Assembly (NCBI GenBank): GCA_011056555.1
Contig: DSEQ01000025.1
Span: 3,736 to 67,735 of the forward strand
Origin: Candidatus Zixiibacteriota bacterium
GTDB lineage: Bacteria; Zixibacteria; MSB-5A5; JAABVY01
Direction of reading: 5' to 3'
Length of the DNA: 64,000 nt
A program made the translations under genes and the position numbers. The notes below the pieces were generated by a model, which ran no database searches, had not been told where the DNA came from, and was given only the letters and a program-made list of their open reading frames with translations. Shown here one piece after another: positions 9,988 through 53,435 of the stretch (its first letter is position 1; each line of letters opens with the position of its first letter).

Positions 9988-11202
9988 TCATACCGATCTC
10001 ATCGCCTGGGCGGGCGGAATACGCGCCGCTTTGACCGCCGGAAAGATAGAGACCAGAAATGCAGACACGACAACGCTGAGAGCGGGTATATAGAAACTGC
10101 GCAAATTCACTTCGGTATACATGCGCTTGAATTCGACTCCACCATAAGTAAATGTTTCTGGCAGCGGTACACCGTGAGCAGAAAGAGCATCATTAATCAG
10201 ATAGCTCAACCCGCAGCCGATAATAACCCCCGCCACTGCAATAATCAGAACTTCGATTATTACCAGCCGAAATACCTGACCTGGTGCGGTTCCAAGCGCA
10301 CGCAGGACGCCATACTCATGAGTACGTTCCAGCACACTCATCAGCACGGTGTTCAGCACCCCAACTGCAACCATGATAAGTATCACCACCAACATAATCC
10401 ACATGCCTTCTTTATCAGCCCGCATCGCGCGATAAAAAGATTTCGCAAATTCCTTCCAGGTGGCGACATCCAGCCCTGAATCATTGAGCGCTTCTTCTAT
10501 ACCGGCAGAGGTTTGGGGCACATCCGCCAGATTATCGCATATGACCGCTATTTCATGAATTCTGTTCTGCAGAACCAGGAGTTGCTGCGCATCCTCGAGA
10601 TGAAGGTAGAAGGAGGCGCGGTCCTCCATCTTATCTCCGCTTTCAACTATTCCGAACACTGCATAGAGATCATTGGCAATTGAACCGTCGGCGGCCTGGG
10701 ATATAATTACAATCGTATCACCGACCGAAGCTTTCAAAATTTTTGCCAGGCCCCTTCCCAGCAGAGCCTTATTTGAAGGCTGCGCGGAAAAATATCGGCC
10801 CTCTGCCACTTTTCGGTCCAGATGAGTGGCCCTGCTTTCGATTTCCGGATCAACGCCGATAATTCTCACCCCGGCGCTCTTGTCATTCAGCGAGGCCAGA
10901 CCGGATGCAAACAGGCGCGGAGTTGTGAACTCAACTCCGGCAATATCGGCAATTACATTCCGGAGTGAATCATAATTCTCTATATTCTTATAGAGGGAGG
11001 GTTTATCCAGGTAGCCCTGACTATGAATCTGGATATGGCCGAGACGATTGCGGGTGAATGAATCGATTATATTATTGTAGGTGCCGTCCGACCATCCGAT
11101 CGAAATCGCCGCCAGCACAAATCCCACAAACATGGTCAGCATCGTTATGATGCTGCGGCGCTTGCGCCTGAATATATTGCGCAGGGCGATCTTGAACATC
11201 AT
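9988..11202 (-). CDS. ABC transporter permease, FtsX/MacB/LolE-like (paralog)
   Basis: Same architecture as the previous gene. The tandem permease pair is typical of LolCDE/MacB-like exporters. Confidence 0.85.
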   Translation of the reverse strand: MMFKIALRNIFRRKRRSIITMLTMFVGFVLAAISIGWSDGTYNNIIDSFTRNRLGHIQIHSQGYLDKPSLYKNIENYDSLRNVIADIAGVEFTTPRLFASGLASLNDKSAGVRIIGVDPEIESRATHLDRKVAEGRYFSAQPSNKALLGRGLAKILKASVGDTIVIISQAADGSIANDLYAVFGIVESGDKMEDRASFYLHLEDAQQLLVLQNRIHEIAVICDNLADVPQTSAGIEEALNDSGLDVATWKEFAKSFYRAMRADKEGMWIMLVVILIMVAVGVLNTVLMSVLERTHEYGVLRALGTAPGQVFRLVIIEVLIIAVAGVIIGCGLSYLINDALSAHGVPLPETFTYGGVEFKRMYTEVNLRSFYIPALSVVVSAFLVSIFPAVKAARIPPAQAMRSV

Positions 11203-13954: not shown

Positions 13955-14341
13955 TCAGGAGACTTTGCCATCGACCATCGTAGGCGGCATTGCTGAACGG
14001 AAACGCAAGAGGGTCGTTTCCATATCTTCATTAATAATTTCCAGGGCTTTGTGTCCTCCATCGGCAGTCTCTTCCATAATCATATATTGCGGGTTTTGAA
14101 TTTTATGGGTGACGGTCTTCTCGGCATTTTCAGATGTGACCACCAGCAGATTCAGGTCACCCTCGTCTTCCAGGACAAAATTCTGCATGGGGGCATTGTC
14201 GGCCAGAACTGTCTTGATGTCGTTCGTATCAAAATGGGTTATATCTAAACGCCAGTTCTTGTGGCTGGTCCCGAATCCAAGCACGAATTCCGGCCACTCC
14301 TCTCTGGGAATCTCGAATTTGCGGACGTTTTCGCTGCTCAT
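13955..14341 (-). CDS. hypothetical acidic protein; its ATG overlaps the stop of the upstream PRTase as ATGA
   Basis: Long ORF with a coding-like composition, translationally coupled to the upstream gene. No family recognised. Confidence 0.4.
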   Translation of the reverse strand: MSSENVRKFEIPREEWPEFVLGFGTSHKNWRLDITHFDTNDIKTVLADNAPMQNFVLEDEGDLNLLVVTSENAEKTVTHKIQNPQYMIMEETADGGHKALEIINEDMETTLLRFRSAMPPTMVDGKVS

Positions 14342-14982
14342 ACAGGCCTCTTTTCCCGCATTAACTCGCACACCTCCTCGTCGCTGACCTGCGGAAAGTT
14401 CTCATACCACTGACCAACACTACTGAACTGTCCGGGAGTATGCATGCAGACTACCTTATCGGCCTCGCTTTCCAGTCTCCGGCAGGTCGGTTCCGCCGCC
14501 ACCGGAACAGCAGCTATCACCTTCCGGGGATCGAGTTTTCTGACGGCTTTTATGGCTGCGAGCATCGATGCTCCGGTCGCCAGGCCATCATCAACCAGCA
14601 AAACGGTTTTGCCCGACACATCGGGAGTTTCTCTGCTTCCCCGATATTTGCGCAAGCGTCTCTCCAATTCGACTTTTTCAACCTCGGCTACCTTATCTAT
14701 TACCCGGGAGGGGATATCCATGGTGCGCACGATATCTTCATTGAGGAGCGTCAGACCACCCTGGGCAATTGATCCCATGGCCAGCTCTTCCTGGCCCGGC
14801 ACGCCAAGTTTCCGGACCATAAAGACATCCAACGGAGCGTTGAGTATGCTCGCGACCTCGTAGGCGACCGGCACCCCTCCGCGCGGAAGCCCGAGCACCA
14901 CAGTATCGTCCCCTTCTATCGTTTCCTTCAGCGACTCCCCCAGTTTCAGTCCTGCTTCTGTGCGATCTTTGAAATATGTCAT
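14338..14982 (-). CDS. phosphoribosyltransferase-domain protein (type I PRT fold)
   Basis: PRPP-binding motif VLLVDDGLATGASM. The start is placed at MTYFKDRTEAG (about 215 aa), an internal ATG of the longer listed ORF. Confidence 0.75.
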   Translation of the reverse strand: MTYFKDRTEAGLKLGESLKETIEGDDTVVLGLPRGGVPVAYEVASILNAPLDVFMVRKLGVPGQEELAMGSIAQGGLTLLNEDIVRTMDIPSRVIDKVAEVEKVELERRLRKYRGSRETPDVSGKTVLLVDDGLATGASMLAAIKAVRKLDPRKVIAAVPVAAEPTCRRLESEADKVVCMHTPGQFSSVGQWYENFPQVSDEEVCELMREKRPV

Positions 14983-15004
14983 ATAATTAAGCCTTTTCCC
15001 GCTG

Positions 15005-15403
15005 TTAATCCGAGGGCATCTCACCCTTGCTGCCGGCCTCAAAGAGTTTATTGTATTCATCCGGAAGCTGCGCCTTGACATCCTCAAGCTCGCCGCCTGT
15101 TACGGCATCCCCGATGACTTCAATCACCACTCTGGCATGGTAAACTGCATCCTGCATTCTGGAGCCTTCTTTCTCGGAGACCTTATTGAAAAACTCGTCC
15201 AGGCCGAACCTCTGGCCATGATCACTGTCGCCCATCAGATACACCACCTCATCAGGCAGTTGTGCCGCTAAATTATTTGCCTCTCCTTCAGTTATTCTCT
15301 CTGACAACGTGCTTAATGTTGCCCGGGTCGCCCTTACCGCTTCCTCCAGCGAACTGAGCCTTGCCCTGCTCTGCACCTCTCTTATAAATTCATCATATTT
15401 CAT
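15005..15403 (-). CDS. DUF2267 family protein
   Basis: MKYDEFIREVQ... with two helical DUF2267 repeats. Confidence 0.6.
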   Translation of the reverse strand: MKYDEFIREVQSRARLSSLEEAVRATRATLSTLSERITEGEANNLAAQLPDEVVYLMGDSDHGQRFGLDEFFNKVSEKEGSRMQDAVYHARVVIEVIGDAVTGGELEDVKAQLPDEYNKLFEAGSKGEMPSD

Positions 15404-15445
15404 ACATATCACACCCTTCAATTAAAGATCAGATTAAATCTATGA

Positions 15446-37656: not shown

Positions 37657-38154
37657 TCATGATAAATAAACCAGCTCATCGATCTCTTGCTTGATCTTGA
37701 TAATTACTTTGCTGATCGCAGGCTTGATCTCTTGTGAAAAACACTTTCCGTGCTCAAAATTCCTGCATTCGATACAATAGACAATCAATTTCTCGGGTAA
37801 ACTCTCCAGGGTTCGAGCAAGCTCGATCGCCTCTCTAAGATTAAATGTGTGTGTGGATAAACTCGAGGTGATGTCCTCGGGAATTTCCTCGTTTAATGCA
37901 TCAAATCGAAAAACTGTTCCGGGTTCACATCCGGAGCATACGGCATCCACAAAGAATACATGCTTTCGTTTCTTCCAATGTTCTATCAGTTTTGTGCTGT
38001 CCCCTACATCCTTTATATATCTTGTCCGATCAGGGTAAAGCTGGAAGATCTTTTTTGCTATCACCGGACCCACCGCATCATCAGAGCGGAATTCATTTCC
38101 GGCGCCTACCAAAAGGATAAGGTCTTCCTCCTGCATCGTAGCTACCTCACTCAC
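37657..38154 (-). CDS. hydrogenase maturation endopeptidase (HycI/HoxW family)
   Basis: [25 protein letters not shown]... with the conserved Asp/His metal ligands. Placed directly downstream of the large subunit. Confidence 0.75.
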
Positions 38155-39436
38155 GGTCTATGGTTAGCTTCAGGAAATGGCAGGAGCAGGAGATGCAGGG
38201 ATCGTAGTTGCGAACGGCCTGTTCACATTTCCAGGTTAACTCGTCATGGGACAGGTTCAGGTTCTTCGAGACAAATTCTGTAAGATCCTCTTCTACCGAT
38301 GATTGATTCTGTGAGGTTGGCGGAATAATTCTGGCATCTTTAATAATGCCATTCTTGTCAATCTGATAACGATGGTAGAGTGTCCCGCGAGGAGCTTCCG
38401 TGGCGCCATGCCCGACGCCTTCTTGTGGTTCTATCTCTATATATGGTTGATCCGGCATTTCACAACTGGCGATTATGCGGAGCGCCTCATCACAGGCGTA
38501 TAATGTCTCAACCGCCCTTACTATTATGCTTTTGAAGGGATTATTGCAGGTCTTGCTCAGGCCGGCTTCTTTGGCGGCCTCTTTTGAGATCTTTGAGAGT
38601 TTATTGAAATTAAGACTGTAACGCGCCATTGGCCCGGTCATGTACGAACCGCGCCCCTTTACAGAGGCCTGCAGCGAGGTGGAATGCTTGACGTGATGTT
38701 CCTCGAAATAATCCAGGAACTGTTCAACACCGATATCGATGCCCTTATTGGAGGCTATCCCGCCCTCATCAATGGGGTACTCGCTTTCATGACTCACGCT
38801 TACGAATTCATAATCCCGTTCAAAATCGGGGAAGTCAAAGGTCGAGACCCATTTTACAGTTTCCAGTGAAGCATCCCGTGCCCATTTCAATGGCTCAACC
38901 ATCTTCTGCAGTTCTTTCTTGTTGGGGACTTTATAAAATCCGCCGACCCGAATATTGATGGGATGGATTTCGCGGCCACCCATCAGGATCATCAGATCAT
39001 TGCCGATCTTCTTGAGCTTTAGGCCTCGTTTTACAACATCCGGGTAATCTTTTGCCATCCCGATCGCATCCTCATATCCCAGAAAATCGGGGGCATGCAG
39101 CATATAAATATGCAGGCCATGGCTTTCGATCCATTCACCGCAGTAAATCAGTCTTCTCAAATCGCGAAGCGGCCCCTCGACCTTGACACCGCAGGCCATC
39201 TCCATCGCATGGCAAGAGCTCATCATGTAGGCAATCGGGCAGATCCCGCAAATTCGGGCGGTGATATCCGGGGCCTCGGTGAATTTCCGTCCGCGCAGAA
39301 AAGCCTCGAAAAACCTGGGCGGCTCGAATATATTCAGCTTTGCTTCCTTAACCTCATCACCGCGGATTTTGACCTGAAGTCCACCCTCTCCCTCGACACG
39401 GGCCAGGTAATCCACCTTGATCGATTTACCTTTCAT
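38147..39436 (-). CDS. NiFe hydrogenase large subunit, group 3b (sulfhydrogenase alpha, HydA-type)
   Basis: N-terminal L1 motif [10 protein letters not shown] and C-terminal DPCISCSCH (DPCxxCxxH). About 430 aa, typical of group 3. Start at MKGKSIKV (an internal ATG of the listed ORF). Confidence 0.85.
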
Positions 39437-40205
39437 GAGCTTCACTCTCCTTCCGGAATGAATCGGCATAGGCATTAAAATTGCGGAAGAATCTGGTCAG
39501 GTCGTCTCTGGAAACATTGAGTTTTTTACACCATTCGGCCAGTGAATTTGTATTGGGTGTTTCCTTGGGTCCGAAGCATCCATAACAGCCCCGATTATAG
39601 GAGGGACACAATGCGCCGCATCCAGCCTGTGTCACCGGACCCAGGCAGGGAGTACCATGCGCGACCATCACGCAGATGTTACCCTTGCGCTTGCATTCCA
39701 TGCACACGCTGTAGGGCGGGATAATCGGCTTCCTGCCGATCAAAAAAGCGCTTACAACCTCGAGCAGCTGGTATTTATTGATAGGACAGCCGCGCAATTC
39801 GTAGTCCACAAATACATGATCTGAAATCGGCGTGGACTTGTTCAGGGTTACGATATATTCCGGGCTGGGGTAAACTATAGCAACAAAATCCTTCACATCG
39901 CTGAAATTTCTGAGCGCCTGTATTCCGCCCGCGGTGGCACAGGCGCCAATCGTCACCAGCACTTTGGAAGCCCTTCTTACCTTATGAATCCGCTCTGCAT
40001 CATGCGGTGTGGTAATCGAACCTTCCACCAGAGAAACATCATATGGACCCTTGATGACTGCACGGGAGGCCTCCGGGAAATTGGCAATCGTAATCTTATC
40101 CGCAACTGCCAGAAGTTCATCTTCACAGTCTAGAAGACTAAGCTGGCAGCCATCGCATGAGGCGAATTTCCATACCGCGAGTTTTGGTTTACGCTCCCTG
40201 GCCAT
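39426..40205 (-). CDS. NiFe hydrogenase small subunit, group 3 (sulfhydrogenase delta)
   Basis: N-terminal CDGCQ proximal-cluster motif plus further Cys ligands; 259 aa. Confidence 0.85.
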
Positions 40206-40206
40206 A

Positions 40207-41073
40207 TCAATACTCTCGCCTGGTGAAGATTTCTTTAATATCGGAGTACCTGAATACAGGGCCGTCTTTGCAGACGAATAACGGACCCATCTGGCAGTGT
40301 CCGCACAGGCCGATTCCGCATTTCATATTTCTTTCCATGGACACATAGATGTCCGCGGGTTCCACGCCACGTTTCTGGAGCCCCAGCGCGCTGAAGCGCA
40401 TCATGATCTCCGGCCCGCAGACCATAGCTGTGCAGTTTAGATGATCGAACGGCGCCCTTCCGATCAGATTGGTCACCACGCCGACATTACCGCGCCAGGA
40501 GCCAGTTCCGCGATCGACAGTTATATGAACTTCGAGGTCAAGACGGGATCGCCACTTTTCCAGTTCCTTTTGGTACAGGATATCGCTGGGAGTTCTGGCT
40601 CCGTATAACAATACGATCTTGCCGTAATTCTCTCTGTGTGCCAGGAGGTAATACATTACCGGGCGCAACGGGGCCATACCGATACCGCCGGCCACCAGGA
40701 CAACATCATTACCCTCGGCCTCTTCCACCGGCCAGCTCGTGCCCAACGGCCCGCGTACTCCAAGAGTGCGGCCCGATTTCAGGCTGTCCATAGCCTTGGT
40801 GACATTACCGACCGCACGGGTTGTATGCACCAGCTTCTCCGGTCTGGTAGGATCGCCGCTGATCGAAATCGGCACCTCCCCCACACCGAAGACATAGATC
40901 ATATTGAACTGCCCGGGCTTAAAATCGAACTTTTTCGGTCCGGAGACAGGCTTCAGTTCCATGGAAAATGTATCCACGGTATCGCGTCTGAAGCGCTGAA
41001 TCATGAACTGCCGGGGCATCATCGGATCATCTTTAAATCCGATTGCCTTTTTATTCTTTTGTATTTCCGCCAT
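40207..41073 (-). CDS. sulfhydrogenase gamma subunit (FAD/NAD(P)-binding, 2Fe-2S; DHOD electron-transfer-subunit-like)
   Basis: Alignable to Pyrococcus HydG (GVGEVPISI; C-terminal [16 protein letters not shown]...CKDGPVF). The start is uncertain (TTG 41130 / ATG 41073 / ATG 41022). Confidence 0.75.
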
Positions 41074-41518
41074 ACACATCAAATAGTTGCATTCGGGTTG
41101 CTTCCAGGCGCTGGGCCATGAGTCTGGCAAAACGCCTCATTAATTCATAACCGAGCTCGTGATCTTCATCCATTTTACCGCGCAGGCATTTACCGTCCAA
41201 TGCGATCGCTCTGGTTAATTCGACCGCGCGAGCGTCGAAATGCCAGCGATAGGGCGGTATCAACCATGACCAACCGGTGACATCCCCGGTTTCACGGGTC
41301 TGAATCGCTATCGGACCTTTTTGCGGGATATAAGTTTCAATTATAATCTTACCGTGCCTGATAAAATAGAAATGGTTAGCCTCGTCCCCTTCACGGAAAA
41401 GAAATTCATCCTTCTTGAAAACAACATTGGAGCCGCAGCCGGTAATAAAATCGATATGCCGTTGCTCCAATCCCTCCAGGAATGGATGCTCTTTTAGTAC
41501 TTTTGCCAGAGATTCCAT
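41051..41518 (-). CDS. stand-alone cyclic-nucleotide-binding (cNMP/CAP effector) domain protein with no DNA-binding domain, embedded in the hydrogenase operon
   Basis: FKKDEFLFREGDEANHFYFIRHGKIII...RETGDVTGW...RAVELTRAIAL beta-roll motif. RBS GAGGAA sits 7 nt upstream, only 4 nt after the beta-subunit stop. Confidence 0.7.
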   Translation of the reverse strand: MESLAKVLKEHPFLEGLEQRHIDFITGCGSNVVFKKDEFLFREGDEANHFYFIRHGKIIIETYIPQKGPIAIQTRETGDVTGWSWLIPPYRWHFDARAVELTRAIALDGKCLRGKMDEDHELGYELMRRFARLMAQRLEATRMQLFDVYGGNTKE

Positions 41519-41522
41519 AAAT

Positions 41523-42659
41523 CTATTCCTCTTTATCTGCCATTATTTTGCCTTTTCCTTCACTTTCCCTGATGGCCTGAACTTCCTCGGTAATATCGAT
41601 TCCCACCGGGCACCAGGTAATGCATCTGCCGCAACCGACACAGCCCGACATCCCGAATTGATCGATCCAACTCGCCAGTTTGTGAGTCAGCCATTGACGA
41701 TACCGAGCCTTGGCTGAAGTGCGCACACTTCCTCCGTATATATAGGAATGATCCAGTGTAAAACATGAATCCCATTTGCGCACACGTTTGGCCGAATTGA
41801 CCTCGAGGCCGGAGATGTCCTCGATGTTTATGCAGAAACAGGTTGGGCACACTAAAGTGCAATTGCCGCAATTCAAACATCTCTGCGCAACTACTTCCCA
41901 GCGGGAACTCTCGAAATTGCGGTAAAGCAGCTCCTTTATGTCGTCTGTATCGAGCCGCCGGCCCATTTTATTCTCGGCCTCTTTCATCAGCCGGTCGGCT
42001 GTCTCGATCGCATTTTGATCAGCTTCTTTGCCCTTGATCTCCTTCATGATTTTTTCGCCGGCCTTTGTACCGGATTCAATCAAGAAATAGTGACCGCTGT
42101 TGTCAACAATTTCCGTGATCGCCAGGTCAAATCCCTTGGTGGCCCTGGGACCAGTACCCATCGAGACACAGAAACAGGTGCCGCCCGGACGCACACAATT
42201 CACAGCAACAATGAAAATATTCTGTCGGCATCTTTCATAATCCGCATCCTTATACGGCCCTTCAAGAAGAATCTCATCCTGGATCCGGATCGCCTCGATT
42301 TCACAGGCGCGGACGCCGATAAATGCCCGTTTGTGGATTTCCTGCTTATTTTCCACAATCTCGAAGCCGTCACCTTTACGCTTCAGCTCAAACAGCTTCT
42401 TCTCAGGCGGATAAAGATATCTTTTCCAGGTATGCTGGCCGACAACATAATCAAAGTATTTCTTGCCGCCCGATTTTACCAGTCTATATCTTCCGCCGTC
42501 CTGTTCATCAGTATACCCAACCGGCAAATCATCCACGTTTGTAATTTCATCATATATAAGGGCCGAATTATCCAGGGTGGGACCGATTATTTGATATTTT
42601 TCTGAAATCAGCGTATCAAAAAGACTTTGCAGGTTACCACTTTCGAGAACCAGAATCAT
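41523..42659 (-). CDS. sulfhydrogenase beta subunit (4Fe-4S cluster protein, HydB-type)
   Basis: Cys clusters CLNCGNCTLVCPTCFC and CVGCGRCITWCP. First gene of the beta-gamma-delta-alpha order typical of group 3b. Confidence 0.8.
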   Translation of the reverse strand: MILVLESGNLQSLFDTLISEKYQIIGPTLDNSALIYDEITNVDDLPVGYTDEQDGGRYRLVKSGGKKYFDYVVGQHTWKRYLYPPEKKLFELKRKGDGFEIVENKQEIHKRAFIGVRACEIEAIRIQDEILLEGPYKDADYERCRQNIFIVAVNCVRPGGTCFCVSMGTGPRATKGFDLAITEIVDNSGHYFLIESGTKAGEKIMKEIKGKEADQNAIETADRLMKEAENKMGRRLDTDDIKELLYRNFESSRWEVVAQRCLNCGNCTLVCPTCFCINIEDISGLEVNSAKRVRKWDSCFTLDHSYIYGGSVRTSAKARYRQWLTHKLASWIDQFGMSGCVGCGRCITWCPVGIDITEEVQAIRESEGKGKIMADKEE

Positions 42660-42681: not shown

Positions 42682-42699
42682 TTGTGATTTATTTCACAA
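42682..42699. promoter_or_regulatory. CRP/FNR-family-type operator TTGTGA-N6-TCACAA between a TTGACA-N17-TATTTT promoter and the hydB start
   Basis: Perfect TGTGA-N6-TCACA palindrome, 23-42 nt upstream of the hydB ATG. Confidence 0.55.
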
Positions 42700-42812
42700 T
42701 TTATACTCAAAATATGATTGTATTCATTGACTGTCAAGAAGAAAAATAGATTAATCTATTTCATGCTGTATCTGTTAGATACCGCATTCATGAGCTCACG
42801 GCAACAAGAACT

Positions 42813-43508
42813 TTAAATTATTCTTAGACCGGAAATTTTTACAGCCCCGCGATGATAACCATCGGGAAATAGTCTCTCAAGATCATCCAGATCGATTTTA
42901 TTATCTTCGCAGGTCTCATAAACGGTCGGAATCTCATTCTTTTTGGCAAACCTGTCTCGCAGATAATGTATTATCTGCCAGTGCCTTTCGGACAGTTTGC
43001 CGCCTGGGATTTTCATATCTGCAGCGCGATGGGCGGCCTAAAATTCATCCCAGTCATCGGGGTTGACCAAGAATCCGCGCACATCAACCTGGTATACTTT
43101 TTCGGTGGCAATCACATCGTAATCTTTTTCGGTCGTGGGCATGAAATTCTGGCCGAGATAACCCTGTTTATAGGTTACTCCCGCAATCCTGCAGGCCCCG
43201 CGAAGATAGCCGGATGGAAACAGTCGCAGCAGGTCACTGAGACCAAGTTTGCACATGCGGCATGTCTCATAAACTGTCGGGCATTTCCCTTTTTCTTGAA
43301 ACTCAAGCCTGACGTAATAAATCACATCCCAGTGCTCCTCGGTCAACTTGGGAGGCATGCCGAGCTGCATGGCAGTCCATTCGGCAAAATCCTCGTCCCA
43401 GATGAAGAAATCGATCAGAAAATCATGAGAGTCAACCGAGTAAGTCTTATCCTTATAATTTACAATGCTCATGACTGGCTCCTTGTTAAAATCCGAAAAA
43501 CGCAGCAT
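42813..43508 (-). CDS. two-domain (tandem) DsrC/TusE/DsvC-family protein lacking the C-terminal Cys arm; the second domain is interrupted by an in-frame TAG at 43038-43040
   Basis: Domain C (MSIVNYKDKTYSVD...LFPSGYLRGACRIAGV), a linker, then domain D (KVYQVDVRGFLVNPDDWDEF*AAHRAADMKIPGG...GLRII). The stop replaces a Phe/Tyr conserved in the three paralogous domains. Confidence 0.55.
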
Positions 43509-44165
43509 TAAACCAGCCGCAAACCGGCTATTTTTATAATGCCGCGATGATAGCCATCCGGGAAGAGACTCTCGAGTTCGTCAAATTCAAGGTTAAATTC
43601 TTCACAAGTCCTGTAAACTGTGGGAATTCCCCCGAATTCCCTGAAATAGGCCCGCACAAAACGGATGATTCTCCAGTGCTGATCGGTCAATTTCCCGTCG
43701 GGAATCTGGCTTTCCATTGCCCGGTGCGAGGCAAAATCCTCATCCCAGTCATCAGGATTCATCAAGAATCCGTGGACGTCAATAACATAAGTCTTCTCTT
43801 CAACATGGACTTCCTCTTCCTCGACCTCCTCGTAAGGAATCCTTCCCAGATTGGTCTGCCTGTAGCTCAATCCGGCCAGCTTACAGGCCCCTCTCTGATA
43901 GCCGCTGGGGAAAAGCTGGCTGAGATCCTTCAGACGCAAATTATTTTTTTCTGCAGGTTTGATATAAGAGAGGACACTGGCCCGTCTCCTCAAAGTTTTT
44001 CCTTATGAACTTTATTACTTCCCAGTGCCGGCCCGTCAACCCGCCGTCAATTCCAAGGGATTGTGCTATACCTTCGGCGAAGACATCGTCCCACTCGTCA
44101 TAATTCTCGAGAAAACCGGATTGATCGACTTTATATGTCTTGCCCTTATAGCTAAATGTCCTCAT
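43508..44165 (-). CDS. two-domain (tandem) DsrC/TusE/DsvC-family protein, paralog of the previous gene; the first domain is interrupted by a frameshift at an A7 homopolymer (43934-43940)
   Basis: Domain A (MRTFSYKGKTYKVDQSGFL...QTCRK) continues in the +1 frame (NNLRLKDLSQLFPSGYQRGACKLAGL...) into domain B (...HRGIIKIAGLRLV). The TAATG stop/start overlaps the next gene. Confidence 0.55.
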
Positions 44166-44279
44166 ACAAGGCTCCTTGCTAAGATATTAGTTCACATGCA
44201 ACCATTTGTCTTATCCATTGGTCGTCATCCTACGTAGAATCTGTATTTTTGCTTTCTAAGTTAATATCCTGGTGCGTTA

Positions 44280-44295
44280 TGTGATAATTTTCACA
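44280..44295. promoter_or_regulatory. CRP/FNR-family-type operator ATGTGA-N6-TCACAT about 115 nt upstream of the DsrC-like tandem genes
   Basis: Perfect TGTGA-N6-TCACA palindrome. Second copy of the motif seen at 42682-42699. Confidence 0.55.
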
Positions 44296-52436: not shown

Positions 52437-52757
52437 ATAATCTCAGGATATATTAACACATGGATGCAGATAAAAAAAGCAATTTCTGCGACGATTTGAT
52501 TAGAAAGATCGCTTTCTCAAACAGCCCGGCTTACGGCTTTTAAGTTTTTTTTATTTTCTCAACTTTTTTCGTTATTCCTCAGCATTTTGAAGGCCCTTAC
52601 TGCATGAACAAAATTAATTTTATTCTTGTCTAATTTGAATGATTAATATATACTACAACAGGTTAGACATATTTTGAGATTGCGGAAAAAGGAGGTTTTG
52701 GAGTGTCAACAGGGCCGGAAACCCAATTAAAAAAAGTTGAAAAATTGTAAATTTAGT

Positions 52758-52785
52758 GTTGACAAGTGGTAAATATATAGTACAT
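52758..52785 (+). promoter_or_regulatory. sigma70-type promoter of small RNA 1 (TTGACA-N16-TACATT)
   Basis: Read directly. Paralogous to the promoter at 53237. Confidence 0.45.
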
Positions 52786-52791
52786 TTATGT

Positions 52792-52866
52792 TACCCCTTT
52801 CATTTAAACCTACCCTATAAGATGTGGTGTCTATGGACCGGCTCCTGCTAGCCGGTCTTTTATTTA
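52792..52866 (+). ncRNA. candidate small RNA, copy 1 (~75 nt) with its own promoter and an intrinsic terminator (gaccggc-N8-gccggtc + U-run)
   Basis: About 80% identical to copy 2 from the predicted TSS through the terminator. Shared blocks AAACCUACC and UGUGGUGUCUA. Confidence 0.5.
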
Positions 52867-53236
52867 TTTAAATATGAAAGTTGTGCAAAAAGAAATTCCT
52901 CTTATGCATCGCAGCAGTTTTCTTGCGCTATAAACGACAATTATCAGAAAAATTACACTACTGTTCGTCGACCGAGATCAGCCAGCATCAAAAATTTGAT
53001 CGGAACTATATAAATTCATCCCATCAAAGTCTTCCCCGTTTTAATCTTTAATTCCGAGATAGACATTTCATTCATTCAGGGTGCGATTCATCCTTGTTTT
53101 TTTGCATTTTGGGCATTAAATAGGATCCGGATACTTAAATCTCAAAGAACTCCGGACATTTAAGTTGATACGGACTATACTTTTAGAAATATTTCGCGGA
53201 TTAATGAAATTTTTTGATGATTCCGGTTCAAAAACA

Positions 53237-53265
53237 TTGACATCATGAATCCACATAATTATATT
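53237..53265 (+). promoter_or_regulatory. sigma70-type promoter of small RNA 2 (TTGACA-N17-TATATT)
   Basis: Near-consensus -35/-10 with 17-nt spacing. Confidence 0.55.
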
Positions 53266-53270
53266 CAGAT

Positions 53271-53342
53271 ACCCTTTTCGTTAAACCTACCTTAAAATTG
53301 TGGTGTCTAGGACCGGTTCCTACCTGCCGGTCCGCTTTTTTT
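53271..53342 (+). ncRNA. candidate small RNA, copy 2 (~72 nt) ending in terminator ggaccgg-N10-ccggtcc + U7
   Basis: Paralog of copy 1. Strong terminator. No ORF. Confidence 0.55.
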
Positions 53343-53435
53343 ATAATTCCAATAATGGAAACCAGTGAATTTAAACTTGTTGAATGAACTCGACTTTTGT
53401 ATCCTGTTTCTACTTATTTTATTTGGTGCCGGATA

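What the first reader, a model, noticed from the sequence alone, without database searches (positions are those of the whole stretch)
42813..44165. Tandem duplicated two-domain DsrC/TusE-like genes, each carrying exactly one lesion (an A7 frameshift and an in-frame TAG)
Four DsrC/TusE-family domains (A-B and C-D) are arranged as two paralogous two-domain genes joined by a TAATG stop/start overlap. All lack the C-terminal Cys-containing arm; A and C retain only the CysB-equivalent (ACKLAGL/ACRIAGV). Domain A is split by a +1 frameshift at the homopolymer AAAAAAA followed directly by TAA (43934-43943). Domain D is split by a TAG replacing a conserved Phe/Tyr. TAG is a genuine stop elsewhere in the window, which argues against recoding. 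The lesions could be assembly/homopolymer errors, recent pseudogenisation, or (less likely) programmed frameshifting at the A-run/stop context. Di-domain armless DsrC-like proteins next to a sulfhydrogenase are themselves unusual.
Basis: partly seen in the sequence, partly recalled or inferred. Interest (0 to 1): 0.6.

Follow-up and report, generated by a model that had tools for sequence, protein, structure and literature searches.

The report
Two freshly broken DsrC-like genes
Two neighbouring genes for double-domain, cysteine-arm-less DsrC-like proteins next to a hydrogenase operon each carry one real, very recent disabling mutation that a sister population lacks, so this is ordinary early gene decay, not programmed recoding.

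Summary
On the minus strand, 44165-42813 holds two paralogous genes, each with two PF04358 DsrC domains and no C-terminal Cys arm. Gene 1 is broken by a 7-A run (43944-43950) followed by TAA (43941-43943). Gene 2 is broken by an in-frame TAG (43038-43040).

A sister population has the same gene order and both genes intact. Its DNA reads A6 where the window reads A7, and its protein has Tyr where the window has TAG. So the lesions are a one-A insertion and a Tyr-to-stop substitution.

dN/dS against the sister is 0.06-0.08, including downstream of the frameshift, so the lesions are recent. The broken allele is 100% identical in at least five assemblies (one at 148x), which argues against assembly error. 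I found no other broken gene in the 64 kb. TAG ends 12 of 57 ORFs. No frameshift stimulator was found. None of 183 other family genes has an internal stop. Programmed recoding is therefore unlikely.

The double-domain family is common: 441 loci in species-representative genomes. About a quarter of well-flanked loci sit beside cytoplasmic [NiFe]-hydrogenase genes. In the window the gene pair and the hydrogenase operon share a TGTGA-N6-TCACA operator. That link is the more interesting residue. Overall: nascent pseudogenes, low-to-moderate interest.

The parts
43941..44165 (-). Gene 1, 5' segment: codons 1-74 of DsrC-like domain A (MRTFSY...TCRKK), ending at premature TAA 43941-43943. Shine-Dalgarno AAGGAG at 44172-44177.
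   Evidence: Pfam DsrC on the repaired product. The 74-aa ORF is called in several public assemblies.
43944..43950 (-). A7 homopolymer: a one-A insertion relative to the A6 of the intact sister allele (TGC AGA AAA AAT AAT TTG = CRKNNL).
   Evidence: One search gives the position. One search is the alignment with L165, where the only gap falls in this run. One search shows a more distant ortholog with CGC AAA AAT AAT.
43508..43940 (-). Gene 1, 3' segment in the +1 frame: the rest of domain A (NLRLKDLSQLFPSGYQRGACKLAGL), the linker and domain B, ending at TAA 43508-43510.
   Evidence: 90% aa identity to intact P0121 downstream of the shift. dN/dS 0.105 downstream of the shift.
43041..43472 (-). 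Gene 2, 5' segment: probable true start ATG 43472 (Shine-Dalgarno AAGGAG 43479-43484), domain C, the linker and the start of domain D, up to ...NPDDWDEF.
   Evidence: dN/dS 0.061 over the first 92 codons.
43038..43040 (-). In-frame TAG replacing a Tyr codon (the sister P0128 reads DEFYAAHRA; the family consensus has Y or F here).
42813..43037 (-). Gene 2, 3' segment: the rest of domain D (AAHRAADMKIPGG...KISGLRII), ending at TAA 42813-42815.
   Evidence: 61 of 74 residues identical to P0128.
44280..44295 (.). Perfect CRP/FNR-type palindrome TGTGA-N6-TCACA, 115-130 nt upstream of gene 1 and just downstream of a TTGACA-containing promoter-like stretch.
   Evidence: one of only two perfect copies in 64 kb; the promoter layout is shared with hydB.
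42683..42698 (.). Second perfect TGTGA-N6-TCACA palindrome, 24 nt upstream of the hydB-like start codon. It is conserved at the same distance in other lineages.
   Evidence: (L031, L130, L162 perfect; L027 one mismatch).
37657..42659 (-). Intact neighbouring hydrogenase operon with group-3b-like subunit composition: hydB-like 4Fe-4S protein (41523-42659), cNMP-binding-domain protein (41051-41518), hydG-like FAD/NAD protein (40207-41130), small subunit (39426-40205), [NiFe] large subunit (38147-39475) and HycI protease (37657-38154).
   Evidence: Pfam. Near-full-length matches at 56-85% aa identity to L162.

Best explanation
Two tandem paralogues encode about 219-aa proteins made of two DsrC-fold domains. 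Both domains lack the C-terminal Cys arm. In one clonal Zixibacteria population, each gene has suffered one recent loss-of-function mutation.

- Gene 1 gained one A in an A6 run. The resulting A7 shifts the frame and gives an immediate TAA after codon 74.
- Gene 2 had a Tyr codon (TAT or TAC) changed to TAG.

Both mutations are real DNA changes fixed in that population. They are much younger than the split from a sister population that keeps both genes intact, and nothing programs the ribosome to bypass them. The genes are therefore nascent pseudogenes. At most they are leaky through background slippage, read-through or re-initiation.

Shown: the lesions, the intact sister allele, strong past purifying selection, and the reproducibility of the broken allele.

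Inferred: loss of function, and that the two paralogues act together, so that losing one relaxes selection on the other.

Inferred for the intact family: these proteins belong to a hydrogenase-linked module. They share an operator with the hyd operon and sit in hyd/hyp or mvh clusters in other lineages. They cannot act as DsrC/TusE-type sulfur carriers because the CysA arm is missing. More likely they act through the helix-turn-helix-like face and/or the four conserved cysteines, as a redox-sensing or regulatory partner.
For: **Lesions present:**

**Intact close orthologs with the same synteny (CBS/M50, MBL, Fpg, gene 1, gene 2, hydB, cNMP):**
- P0121 and P0128 sit on a 5,019-bp JGI contig.
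- The sister's DNA (L165, 87% nt identity) shows A6 against A7 as the only indel in gene 1.

**Recent damage:**
- dN/dS is 0.079 for gene 1, 0.105 downstream of the shift, and 0.061 for gene 2, at dS of about 0.7.
- Both repaired products keep all 45 invariant family columns.
- Both score inside the family range.

**Reproducibility:** the broken allele is 100.000% identical over up to 17.8 kb in five or more assemblies and samples, one at 148x.

**Specificity:**
- No other split gene was found in the window.
- None of 183 other family genes has an internal stop.
- TAG is an ordinary stop here (12 of 57 ORFs).

**Hydrogenase link:**
Against: - No read-level data were available. The assemblies may share underlying samples, so a systematic error is not formally excluded.
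- No decay is visible beyond the two lesions. That pattern is also what functional recoding or a still-functional split gene would look like.
- An A7 run followed by a stop codon is a context in which low-level +1 or transcriptional slippage is known to occur (general knowledge).
- A TTG start lies 1 nt after the TAA (43937-43939), so termination-reinitiation is possible.
- The neighbouring hydrogenase operon is fully intact, so the module as a whole is not decaying.
Confidence: 0.75

Rival explanations
1. Split but still functional genes. Translation terminates at TAA 43941-43943 and re-initiates at the TTG one nucleotide downstream (43937-43939). In gene 2 it re-initiates at ATG 43016, after the TAG. 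The fragments then assemble non-covalently.
For: NCBI and JGI annotators call a 143-aa ORF starting at that TTG (P0122 and P0124) and a 67-aa ORF from ATG 43016 (P0129). No decay is seen downstream of either lesion.
Against: - The break in gene 1 cuts domain A inside its helical core, between predicted helices 67-73 and 78-84.
- The gene 2 restart would drop 7 conserved residues.
- There is no Shine-Dalgarno sequence before either restart.
- No other family member is split this way.
- The lack of decay is equally explained by the lesions being recent.
Confidence: 0.1
2. Functional recoding. This would be a programmed +1 ribosomal frameshift or transcriptional slippage at A7-UAA, restoring gene 1, together with UAG read-through or recoding in gene 2. 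It could serve as a regulatory or phase-variable switch.
For: The AAA-AAA-UAA context contains a slippery Lys codon next to a stop, as in known +1 sites (general knowledge). The downstream frames are perfectly preserved.
Against: - The closest ortholog is in frame with A6 and has Tyr at the TAG position.
- A more distant ortholog reads CGC AAA AAT AAT.
- None of 183 family genes has an internal stop.
- There is no Shine-Dalgarno-like element upstream of the shift site and no stable structure downstream (z +1.13).
- TAG terminates 12 of 57 ORFs.
- No tRNA and no Rfam element is present in the window.
Confidence: 0.05
3. Sequencing or assembly artefacts (a homopolymer miscall plus a base error) in otherwise intact genes.
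For: Homopolymer runs are the classic site of indel errors. All the broken-allele assemblies are 100% identical and may derive from overlapping sample sets.
Against: - Five or more assemblies made with different assemblers (SPAdes NODE, MEGAHIT k141, Logan, JGI, NCBI TPA MAGs) agree, one at 148x coverage.
- Two errors landing in adjacent paralogues, with none seen elsewhere in 64 kb, is improbable.
Confidence: 0.08

Closest known systems
DsrC (gamma subunit / substrate protein of dissimilatory sulfite reductase)
   Same: Each of the four domains has the DsrC fold. Pfam PF04358 gives E 4e-44 and 4e-39. The AF2 model matches DsrC chains 3or2_C and 2v4j_C with TM 0.92-0.93. The N-domains keep the CysB-equivalent in GAC[KR]xAG.
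   Different: There is no C-terminal swinging arm and no penultimate CysA, the residue that carries the sulfur. Family proteins end at ...AGLRVR. Two domains are fused in one chain. Extra conserved Cys are present at positions 64, 71 and 187. The genomic partner is a [NiFe]-hydrogenase cluster rather than dsrAB.
TusE (tRNA 2-thiouridine sulfur relay protein)
   Same: Same Pfam/TIGR03342 superfamily. JGI annotates many family members as 'tRNA 2-thiouridine synthesizing protein E'.
   Different: The proteins score 72.6 and 52.5 bits against the TusE equivalog NF008562, whose cut-off is 191. They lack the catalytic C-terminal Cys. The annotation is a superfamily carry-over.
[quoted passage not shown]
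   Same: They lack the C-terminal redox cysteines while keeping the helix-turn-helix-containing core. There is a weak LexA_DNA_bind hit (E 2.8e-4). The family name DsrC/TusE/RspA is as used in PMC8477390. A regulatory role for such proteins is my recollection of the literature and was not tested here.
   Different: This is a covalent double domain with four conserved cysteines. It occurs in tandem multi-copy arrays inside hydrogenase operons. No DNA-binding evidence exists.
prfB-type programmed +1 frameshift
   Same: A slippery codon sits immediately before an in-frame stop, and the downstream ORF lies in the +1 frame.
   Different: The feature is not conserved in orthologs. There is no upstream Shine-Dalgarno-like stimulator. 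It arose by a single-base insertion in an A6 run.

Membership tests
DsrC/TusE/DsvC superfamily (PF04358, TIGR03342) | Sequence match to the family HMM above the curated cut-off | tested here: met
   PF04358 scores 149.9 and 133.8 bits against a cut-off of 24.9, with two stretches in each protein. TIGR03342 scores 117.4 and 98.5 bits against 53.5.
DsrC/TusE/DsvC superfamily (PF04358, TIGR03342) | DsrC three-dimensional fold | tested here: met
   The AF2 model has pLDDT 84.4 and shows two beta-hairpin plus five-helix units. Foldseek against PDB finds DsrC chains at TMt 0.92-0.93.
Bona fide DsrC (sulfite-reductase partner) | Flexible C-terminal arm with the penultimate CysA | tested here: not met
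   All four domains stop at, or continue without Cys after, the AGL motif. Only 2 of 117 family members have any Cys in the last 12 residues.
Bona fide DsrC (sulfite-reductase partner) | CysB 11 residues upstream of CysA | tested here: inconclusive
   The equivalent Cys is present in domains A and C (C94, aligned to Cys93 of 2v4j_C). It is absent from domains B and D. Without CysA it cannot form the canonical pair.
Bona fide DsrC (sulfite-reductase partner) | Genomic co-occurrence with dsrAB/dsrMK | not tested
   Only 64 kb of the genome is available, and its genes were not screened systematically for dsr genes. No other DsrC-like sequence is in the window.
TusE | Score above the NCBIfam equivalog cut-off and a catalytic C-terminal Cys | tested here: not met
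   NF008562 scores 72.6 and 52.5 bits against a cut-off of 191. No C-terminal Cys is present.
Programmed +1 ribosomal frameshift (prfB-like) | Frameshift conserved among orthologs | tested here: not met
   The sister L165/P0121 is in frame with A6. L162 is in frame. None of 183 family genes is disrupted.
Programmed +1 ribosomal frameshift (prfB-like) | Stimulatory elements (upstream Shine-Dalgarno-like sequence, or downstream structure) | tested here: not met
   The upstream sequence CTCTTATATCAAACCTGCAG has no GGAGG-like element. The 104 nt downstream fold no better than shuffles (z +1.13).
UAG sense recoding (pyrrolysine or suppressor) | UAG avoided as a stop, a recoding tRNA or machinery present, and the UAG conserved in orthologs | tested here: not met
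   TAG ends 12 of 57 ORFs. No tRNA is in the window. The ortholog has Tyr. pyl genes elsewhere in the genome cannot be tested.
Recent pseudogene | Disabling lesion absent from close orthologs | tested here: met
Recent pseudogene | Relaxed selection or loss of expression | not testable with these tools
   dN/dS of 0.06-0.10 reflects the long shared history, not the period since the lesions arose. No expression data are available.
Group 3b [NiFe]-hydrogenase (the neighbouring operon) | Four-subunit composition: 4Fe-4S beta, FAD/NAD gamma, small delta and large alpha subunits | tested here: met
   Fer4_22; NAD_binding_1 plus DHODB_Fe-S_bind; Oxidored_q6; NiFeSe_Hases. Phylogenetic class assignment was not done. 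An extra cNMP-binding protein is inserted.

The most novel reading that the evidence does not exclude
The intact family may be a dedicated partner module of cytoplasmic [NiFe]-hydrogenases. The family consists of about 219-aa double-DsrC-fold proteins without the Cys arm and with four near-invariant cysteines (three in the N-domain, one in the C-domain). The partner hydrogenases are of two kinds: group-3b-like and Mvh/FlpD-like. The family could act as a thiol/disulfide or metal-cluster redox acceptor or sensor, or as a pseudo-dimeric helix-turn-helix regulator. It appears co-regulated with the hydrogenase through a shared TGTGA-N6-TCACA operator. The window would then capture a lineage in the act of discarding the module while keeping the hydrogenase.
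Probability: 0.3. Interest if true: 0.55.

Novelty: new variant of a known kind. Interest (0 to 1): 0.3.

Why it matters
The lesions themselves are textbook early gene decay: a homopolymer insertion and a nonsense substitution. Their main practical value is as a caution that the four small 'DsrC' ORFs in public Zixibacteria MAGs are fragments of two genes.

The context is the more useful product.

- A large, unstudied family of double-domain, armless DsrC-like proteins is routinely mis-annotated as TusE or as a sulfur relay protein, a role it cannot carry out without the CysA arm.
- The family recurs inside or beside two classes of cytoplasmic [NiFe]-hydrogenase clusters in Zixibacteria, Ignavibacteria and related MAGs.
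- In the window it shares an operator with the hydrogenase operon.

If that link is functional, it would add a new accessory or regulatory component to hydrogenases that are widely used as metabolic markers in metagenomics. It would also mean that 'dsrC/tusE' hits should not be read as evidence of sulfur metabolism in these phyla.

Tried and rejected
1. **Close relatives by scanning.** I scanned GTDB genomes and JGI metagenomes. The decisive sister allele came instead from an exact-sequence cluster look-up.
2. **Sister DNA at the TAG site.** It could not be fetched because the sample file is too large. The ancestral codon is therefore known only as Tyr, from the protein.
3. **Other broken genes in the window.** Five groups of overlapping same-strand ORFs looked like possible split genes (60-626/518-1765; 19257-20363/20515-21570/21371-22924; 56337-56816/56734-57330; 13955-15421). 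Pfam shows they are distinct intact genes.
4. **Recoding elements.** The Rfam and tRNA scans of the window were empty. RNA folding downstream of the A run gave no signal.
5. **The -1 frame at A_AAA_AAA.** It would give ...TCRKKIICV*, ending in 'CV' like a DsrC arm. I treat this as coincidence: the product would lack the last two helices of the fold, and the sister has A6, which gives a different frame relation.
6. **Literature.** Searches for double-domain, fused or tandem DsrC, for RspA, and for DsrC/TusE with hydrogenases found nothing specific.
7. **AFDB fold search.** It was unavailable. Model coordinates are not exposed, so distances between the four cysteines could not be measured.
Full report
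**What is there**

On the minus strand, 44165-42813 holds two tandem genes.

Gene 1 starts at ATG 44165, behind AAGGAG at 44172-44177. It reads 74 codons (MRTFSY...LLYQTCRKK) and then hits TAA at 43941-43943, directly after a run of seven A (43944-43950). The remainder of the first domain and a complete second domain continue in the +1 frame to TAA 43508-43510.

Gene 2 most likely starts at ATG 43472, behind AAGGAG at 43479-43484, and not at the TAATG overlap at 43506-43510. Family N-termini align to this ATG. The Shine-Dalgarno stretch is identical in the sister sequence, whereas the codons between TAATG and this ATG carry non-synonymous differences. Gene 2 is interrupted by TAG at 43038-43040 and ends at TAA 42813-42815.

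After conceptual repair, each product has two PF04358 DsrC domains (E 4e-44 and 4e-39) and passes TIGR03342. Both fall far below the TusE equivalog cut-off (72.6 and 52.5 bits against 191). An AlphaFold model of repaired gene 1 (pLDDT 84.4) shows two beta-hairpin plus five-helix units joined by a disordered linker at residues 107-121. Each unit superposes on solved DsrC chains with TM 0.92-0.93, and no double-domain structure exists in the PDB.

None of the four domains has the C-terminal arm with the penultimate cysteine. The Cys in GAC[KR]xAG of domains A and C aligns with CysB (Cys93) of D. vulgaris DsrC.

**Are the lesions real, and what were the ancestral states?**

An exact-sequence look-up of the fragments showed that the same four fragments are annotated in several public assemblies. 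These include NCBI TPA MAGs of candidate division Zixibacteria (HEQ98942-5, HDS01083-4).

The same look-up showed that the 90% clusters also contain full-length members: P0121 (218 aa) and P0128 (231 aa as called). Both lie on one 5,019-bp JGI contig with the same gene order as the window: CBS/M50 protease, MBL hydrolase, Fpg, gene 1, gene 2, hydB-like, cNMP-binding.

- P0121 reads ...LLYQTCRKNNLRLKDLSQLFPSGYQRGACKLAGL....
- P0128 reads ...NPDDWDEFYAAHRAADMK....

For gene 1 I obtained sister DNA (L165, 87% nt identity). The only indel in the gene is in the A run: TGCAG-AAAAAATAAT in the sister against TGCAGAAAAAAATAAT in the window. A more distant syntenic ortholog (L162) has CGC AAA AAT AAT.

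Thus gene 1 suffered a one-A insertion (A6 to A7), and gene 2 a Tyr-codon-to-TAG substitution.

**Age of the lesions**

Nei-Gojobori dN/dS between the window and the sister is 0.079 for gene 1 (dS 0.68). It is 0.105 for the part downstream of the frameshift, and 0.061 for the first 92 codons of gene 2.

Protein identity to the sister is 92% upstream and 90% downstream of the frameshift in gene 1. In gene 2 it is 90% upstream and 82% downstream of the TAG. The gene 2 differences sit in a segment that is variable across the whole family.

Both repaired proteins retain all 45 invariant family columns and score within the family range on a family HMM. Nearly all of the divergence therefore accumulated under strong purifying selection. 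The lesions are very young.

**Artefact?**

The broken allele is 100.000% identical to the window in these assemblies:

| Source | Contig | Length or note |
|---|---|---|
| Logan | SRR5214154 | 17,808 bp |
| ENA ERZ791560 | NODE_13 | 92,963 bp, coverage 148x |
| ENA ERZ27245610 | k141 contig | - |
| JGI 3300010317 | Ga0116197_1005488 | contig seen in three samples |

The fragments also occur on JGI contigs of 68.5 and 470 kb and in two NCBI MAGs.

Different assemblers at high coverage agreeing on both an indel and a substitution makes assembly error unlikely. Without read pile-ups, and without knowing how independent the samples are, I leave it at about 8%.

**Chance?**

A greedy ORF map of the window gives 57 ORFs of 90 aa or more. 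The overlapping same-strand ORF pairs that might have been split genes are all distinct, intact families. So the only two lesions I could find in 64 kb lie in two adjacent paralogues.

Given one lesion, the chance that a second random one hits the 0.66-kb neighbour is about 1%. Among 183 full-length family genes in 159 fetched loci, none has an internal stop. The coincidence is best explained by the two genes sharing one function. Either selection on the pair was relaxed, or loss was favoured.

**Programmed recoding?**

This is the most exciting reading, and it fails the tests I could run.

- The frameshift and the TAG are absent from the nearest and from more distant orthologs.
- No Shine-Dalgarno-like stimulator lies upstream of the shift site.
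- The 104 nt downstream fold no better than shuffled sequence (z +1.13).
- TAG terminates 12 of 57 ORFs, including the hydB-like gene 150 nt downstream.
- The window holds no tRNA or Rfam element.

Background +1 or transcriptional slippage on A7 next to a stop, near-cognate read-through of UAG, or termination-reinitiation may still give traces of product. Candidate restart codons are the TTG one nucleotide after the TAA and ATG 43016. Annotators do call these ORFs. This rests on inference from general knowledge, not on evidence from this locus.

**What the genes are when intact**

The double-domain protein is not rare. A search returned 983 hits, nearly all 217-223 aa. A scan of one genome per GTDB species found 441 loci in Zixibacteria, Ignavibacteria, Desulfobacterales, Syntrophobacteraceae, Acidobacteriota, NC10 and others. 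The family ends at ...KIAGLRVR with no Cys arm. It has four cysteines conserved at 98-100%: positions 64, 71 and 94 in the N-domain, and 187 in the C-domain.

Twenty-five of the 159 fetched loci have a [NiFe] large-subunit gene within the fetched flank. Among loci with at least 4 kb on both sides, the count is 16 of 60. The hydrogenases are of two kinds.

- **Group-3b-like operon**, as in the window: hydB-like Fer4_22 protein, a cNMP-binding-domain protein, hydG-like FAD/NAD protein, small subunit, large subunit, HycI.
- **Mvh-like operon**: FlpD, small subunit, large subunit, HycI. In Zixibacteria and Ignavibacteria MAGs this is followed directly by two or three tandem double-DsrC genes.

L162, with 56-85% aa identity to the window's hydrogenase proteins, places a single intact gene-1 ortholog between hypB and the hyd operon.

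In the window, the only two perfect TGTGA-N6-TCACA palindromes lie upstream of gene 1 (44280-44295) and 24 nt upstream of hydB (42683-42698). Both follow a similar TTGACA-containing promoter-like layout. The hydB site is conserved at the same distance in L031, L130 and L162, and with one mismatch in L027. A one-mismatch version (GGTGATAATGCTCACA) lies about 220 nt upstream of the double-DsrC gene in L053, L073 and L080.

The gene pair and the hydrogenase therefore look like one regulon.

**How it most likely works**

Without CysA the proteins cannot carry sulfur as DsrC or TusE do. That is a tested, unmet defining feature, so I do not file them as DsrC or TusE.

[quoted passage not shown] The proposed regulatory role of that branch is my recollection and was not tested here. 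There is a weak LexA-type helix-turn-helix hit (E 2.8e-4).

The operon position downstream of the structural genes, the tandem multi-copy arrays and the four conserved cysteines point as much to a redox or accessory partner of the hydrogenase as to a regulator. I cannot separate these two roles with the available tools, and I state this only as a hypothesis (probability about 0.3 that the link is a dedicated functional partnership).

I found no paper describing the double-domain family or its hydrogenase association.

**Verdict**

The lesions are ordinary nascent pseudogenisation, confined to one clonal Zixibacteria population whose hydrogenase operon remains intact. Interest in the lesions is low. 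The hydrogenase-linked, mis-annotated double-DsrC family and its shared operator raise the overall score to about 0.3.

Noticed in passing
window 44280-44295 and 42683-42698; L031 4584-4599, L130 584-599, L162 10255-10270, L027 4585-4600: The only two perfect TGTGA-N6-TCACA (CRP/FNR-type) palindromes in the 64 kb sit upstream of gene 1 and 24 nt upstream of hydB. The hydB site is conserved at the same distance in other lineages, which suggests one regulon for the DsrC-like pair and the hydrogenase.
   Followed up: partly
window 41051-41518 (-), and the equivalent gene in L027, L031, L033, L049, L051, L053, L068, L080, L130, L162: A 155-aa protein consisting only of a cNMP-binding domain, with no DNA-binding domain, is conserved between the hydB-like and hydG-like genes of this group-3b-like hydrogenase operon. 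It could be the ligand-sensing half of whatever binds the palindromes.
   Followed up: partly
L170 5794-11392 (Zixibacteria bin38, CP070742.1), also L008, L012, L032, L039, L061: An Mvh-like operon (FlpD, small subunit, large subunit, HycI) is followed immediately by two or three tandem double-DsrC genes. No Hdr genes were seen within the flank examined.
   Followed up: partly
window 42750-42763 (-), L162 about 10195-10210: A second palindrome, ATAGATTAATCTAT, lies just upstream of the TTGACA of the hydB promoter-like region. It is conserved in L162 as ATAGATTTATCTAT.
   Followed up: no
window 43926-43950 (-): The -1 frame from the A run reads ...KKIICV followed by a stop, ending in 'CV' like the canonical DsrC arm. 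I judged this a coincidence.
   Followed up: partly
window 52437-53396: A 960-bp stretch between divergent genes has no ORF longer than 56 aa and no Rfam hit. This is unusually long for this compact window.
   Followed up: no
family alignment A1; positions 64, 71, 94, 187 of repaired gene 1: Four cysteines are conserved at 98-100% across 117 family members, three in the N-domain and one in the C-domain. This could be a metal or Fe-S site or a redox site. Their geometry could not be checked because model coordinates are not exposed.
   Followed up: partly
loci L006, L076 and others (clusters): Away from hydrogenases, recurrent neighbours of double-DsrC genes include PAS/sigma-54 activators (15 loci), Rrf2 regulators (9 loci), a Tat-signal MBL-fold protein (11 loci) and multihaem cytochromes (8 loci).
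   Followed up: partly
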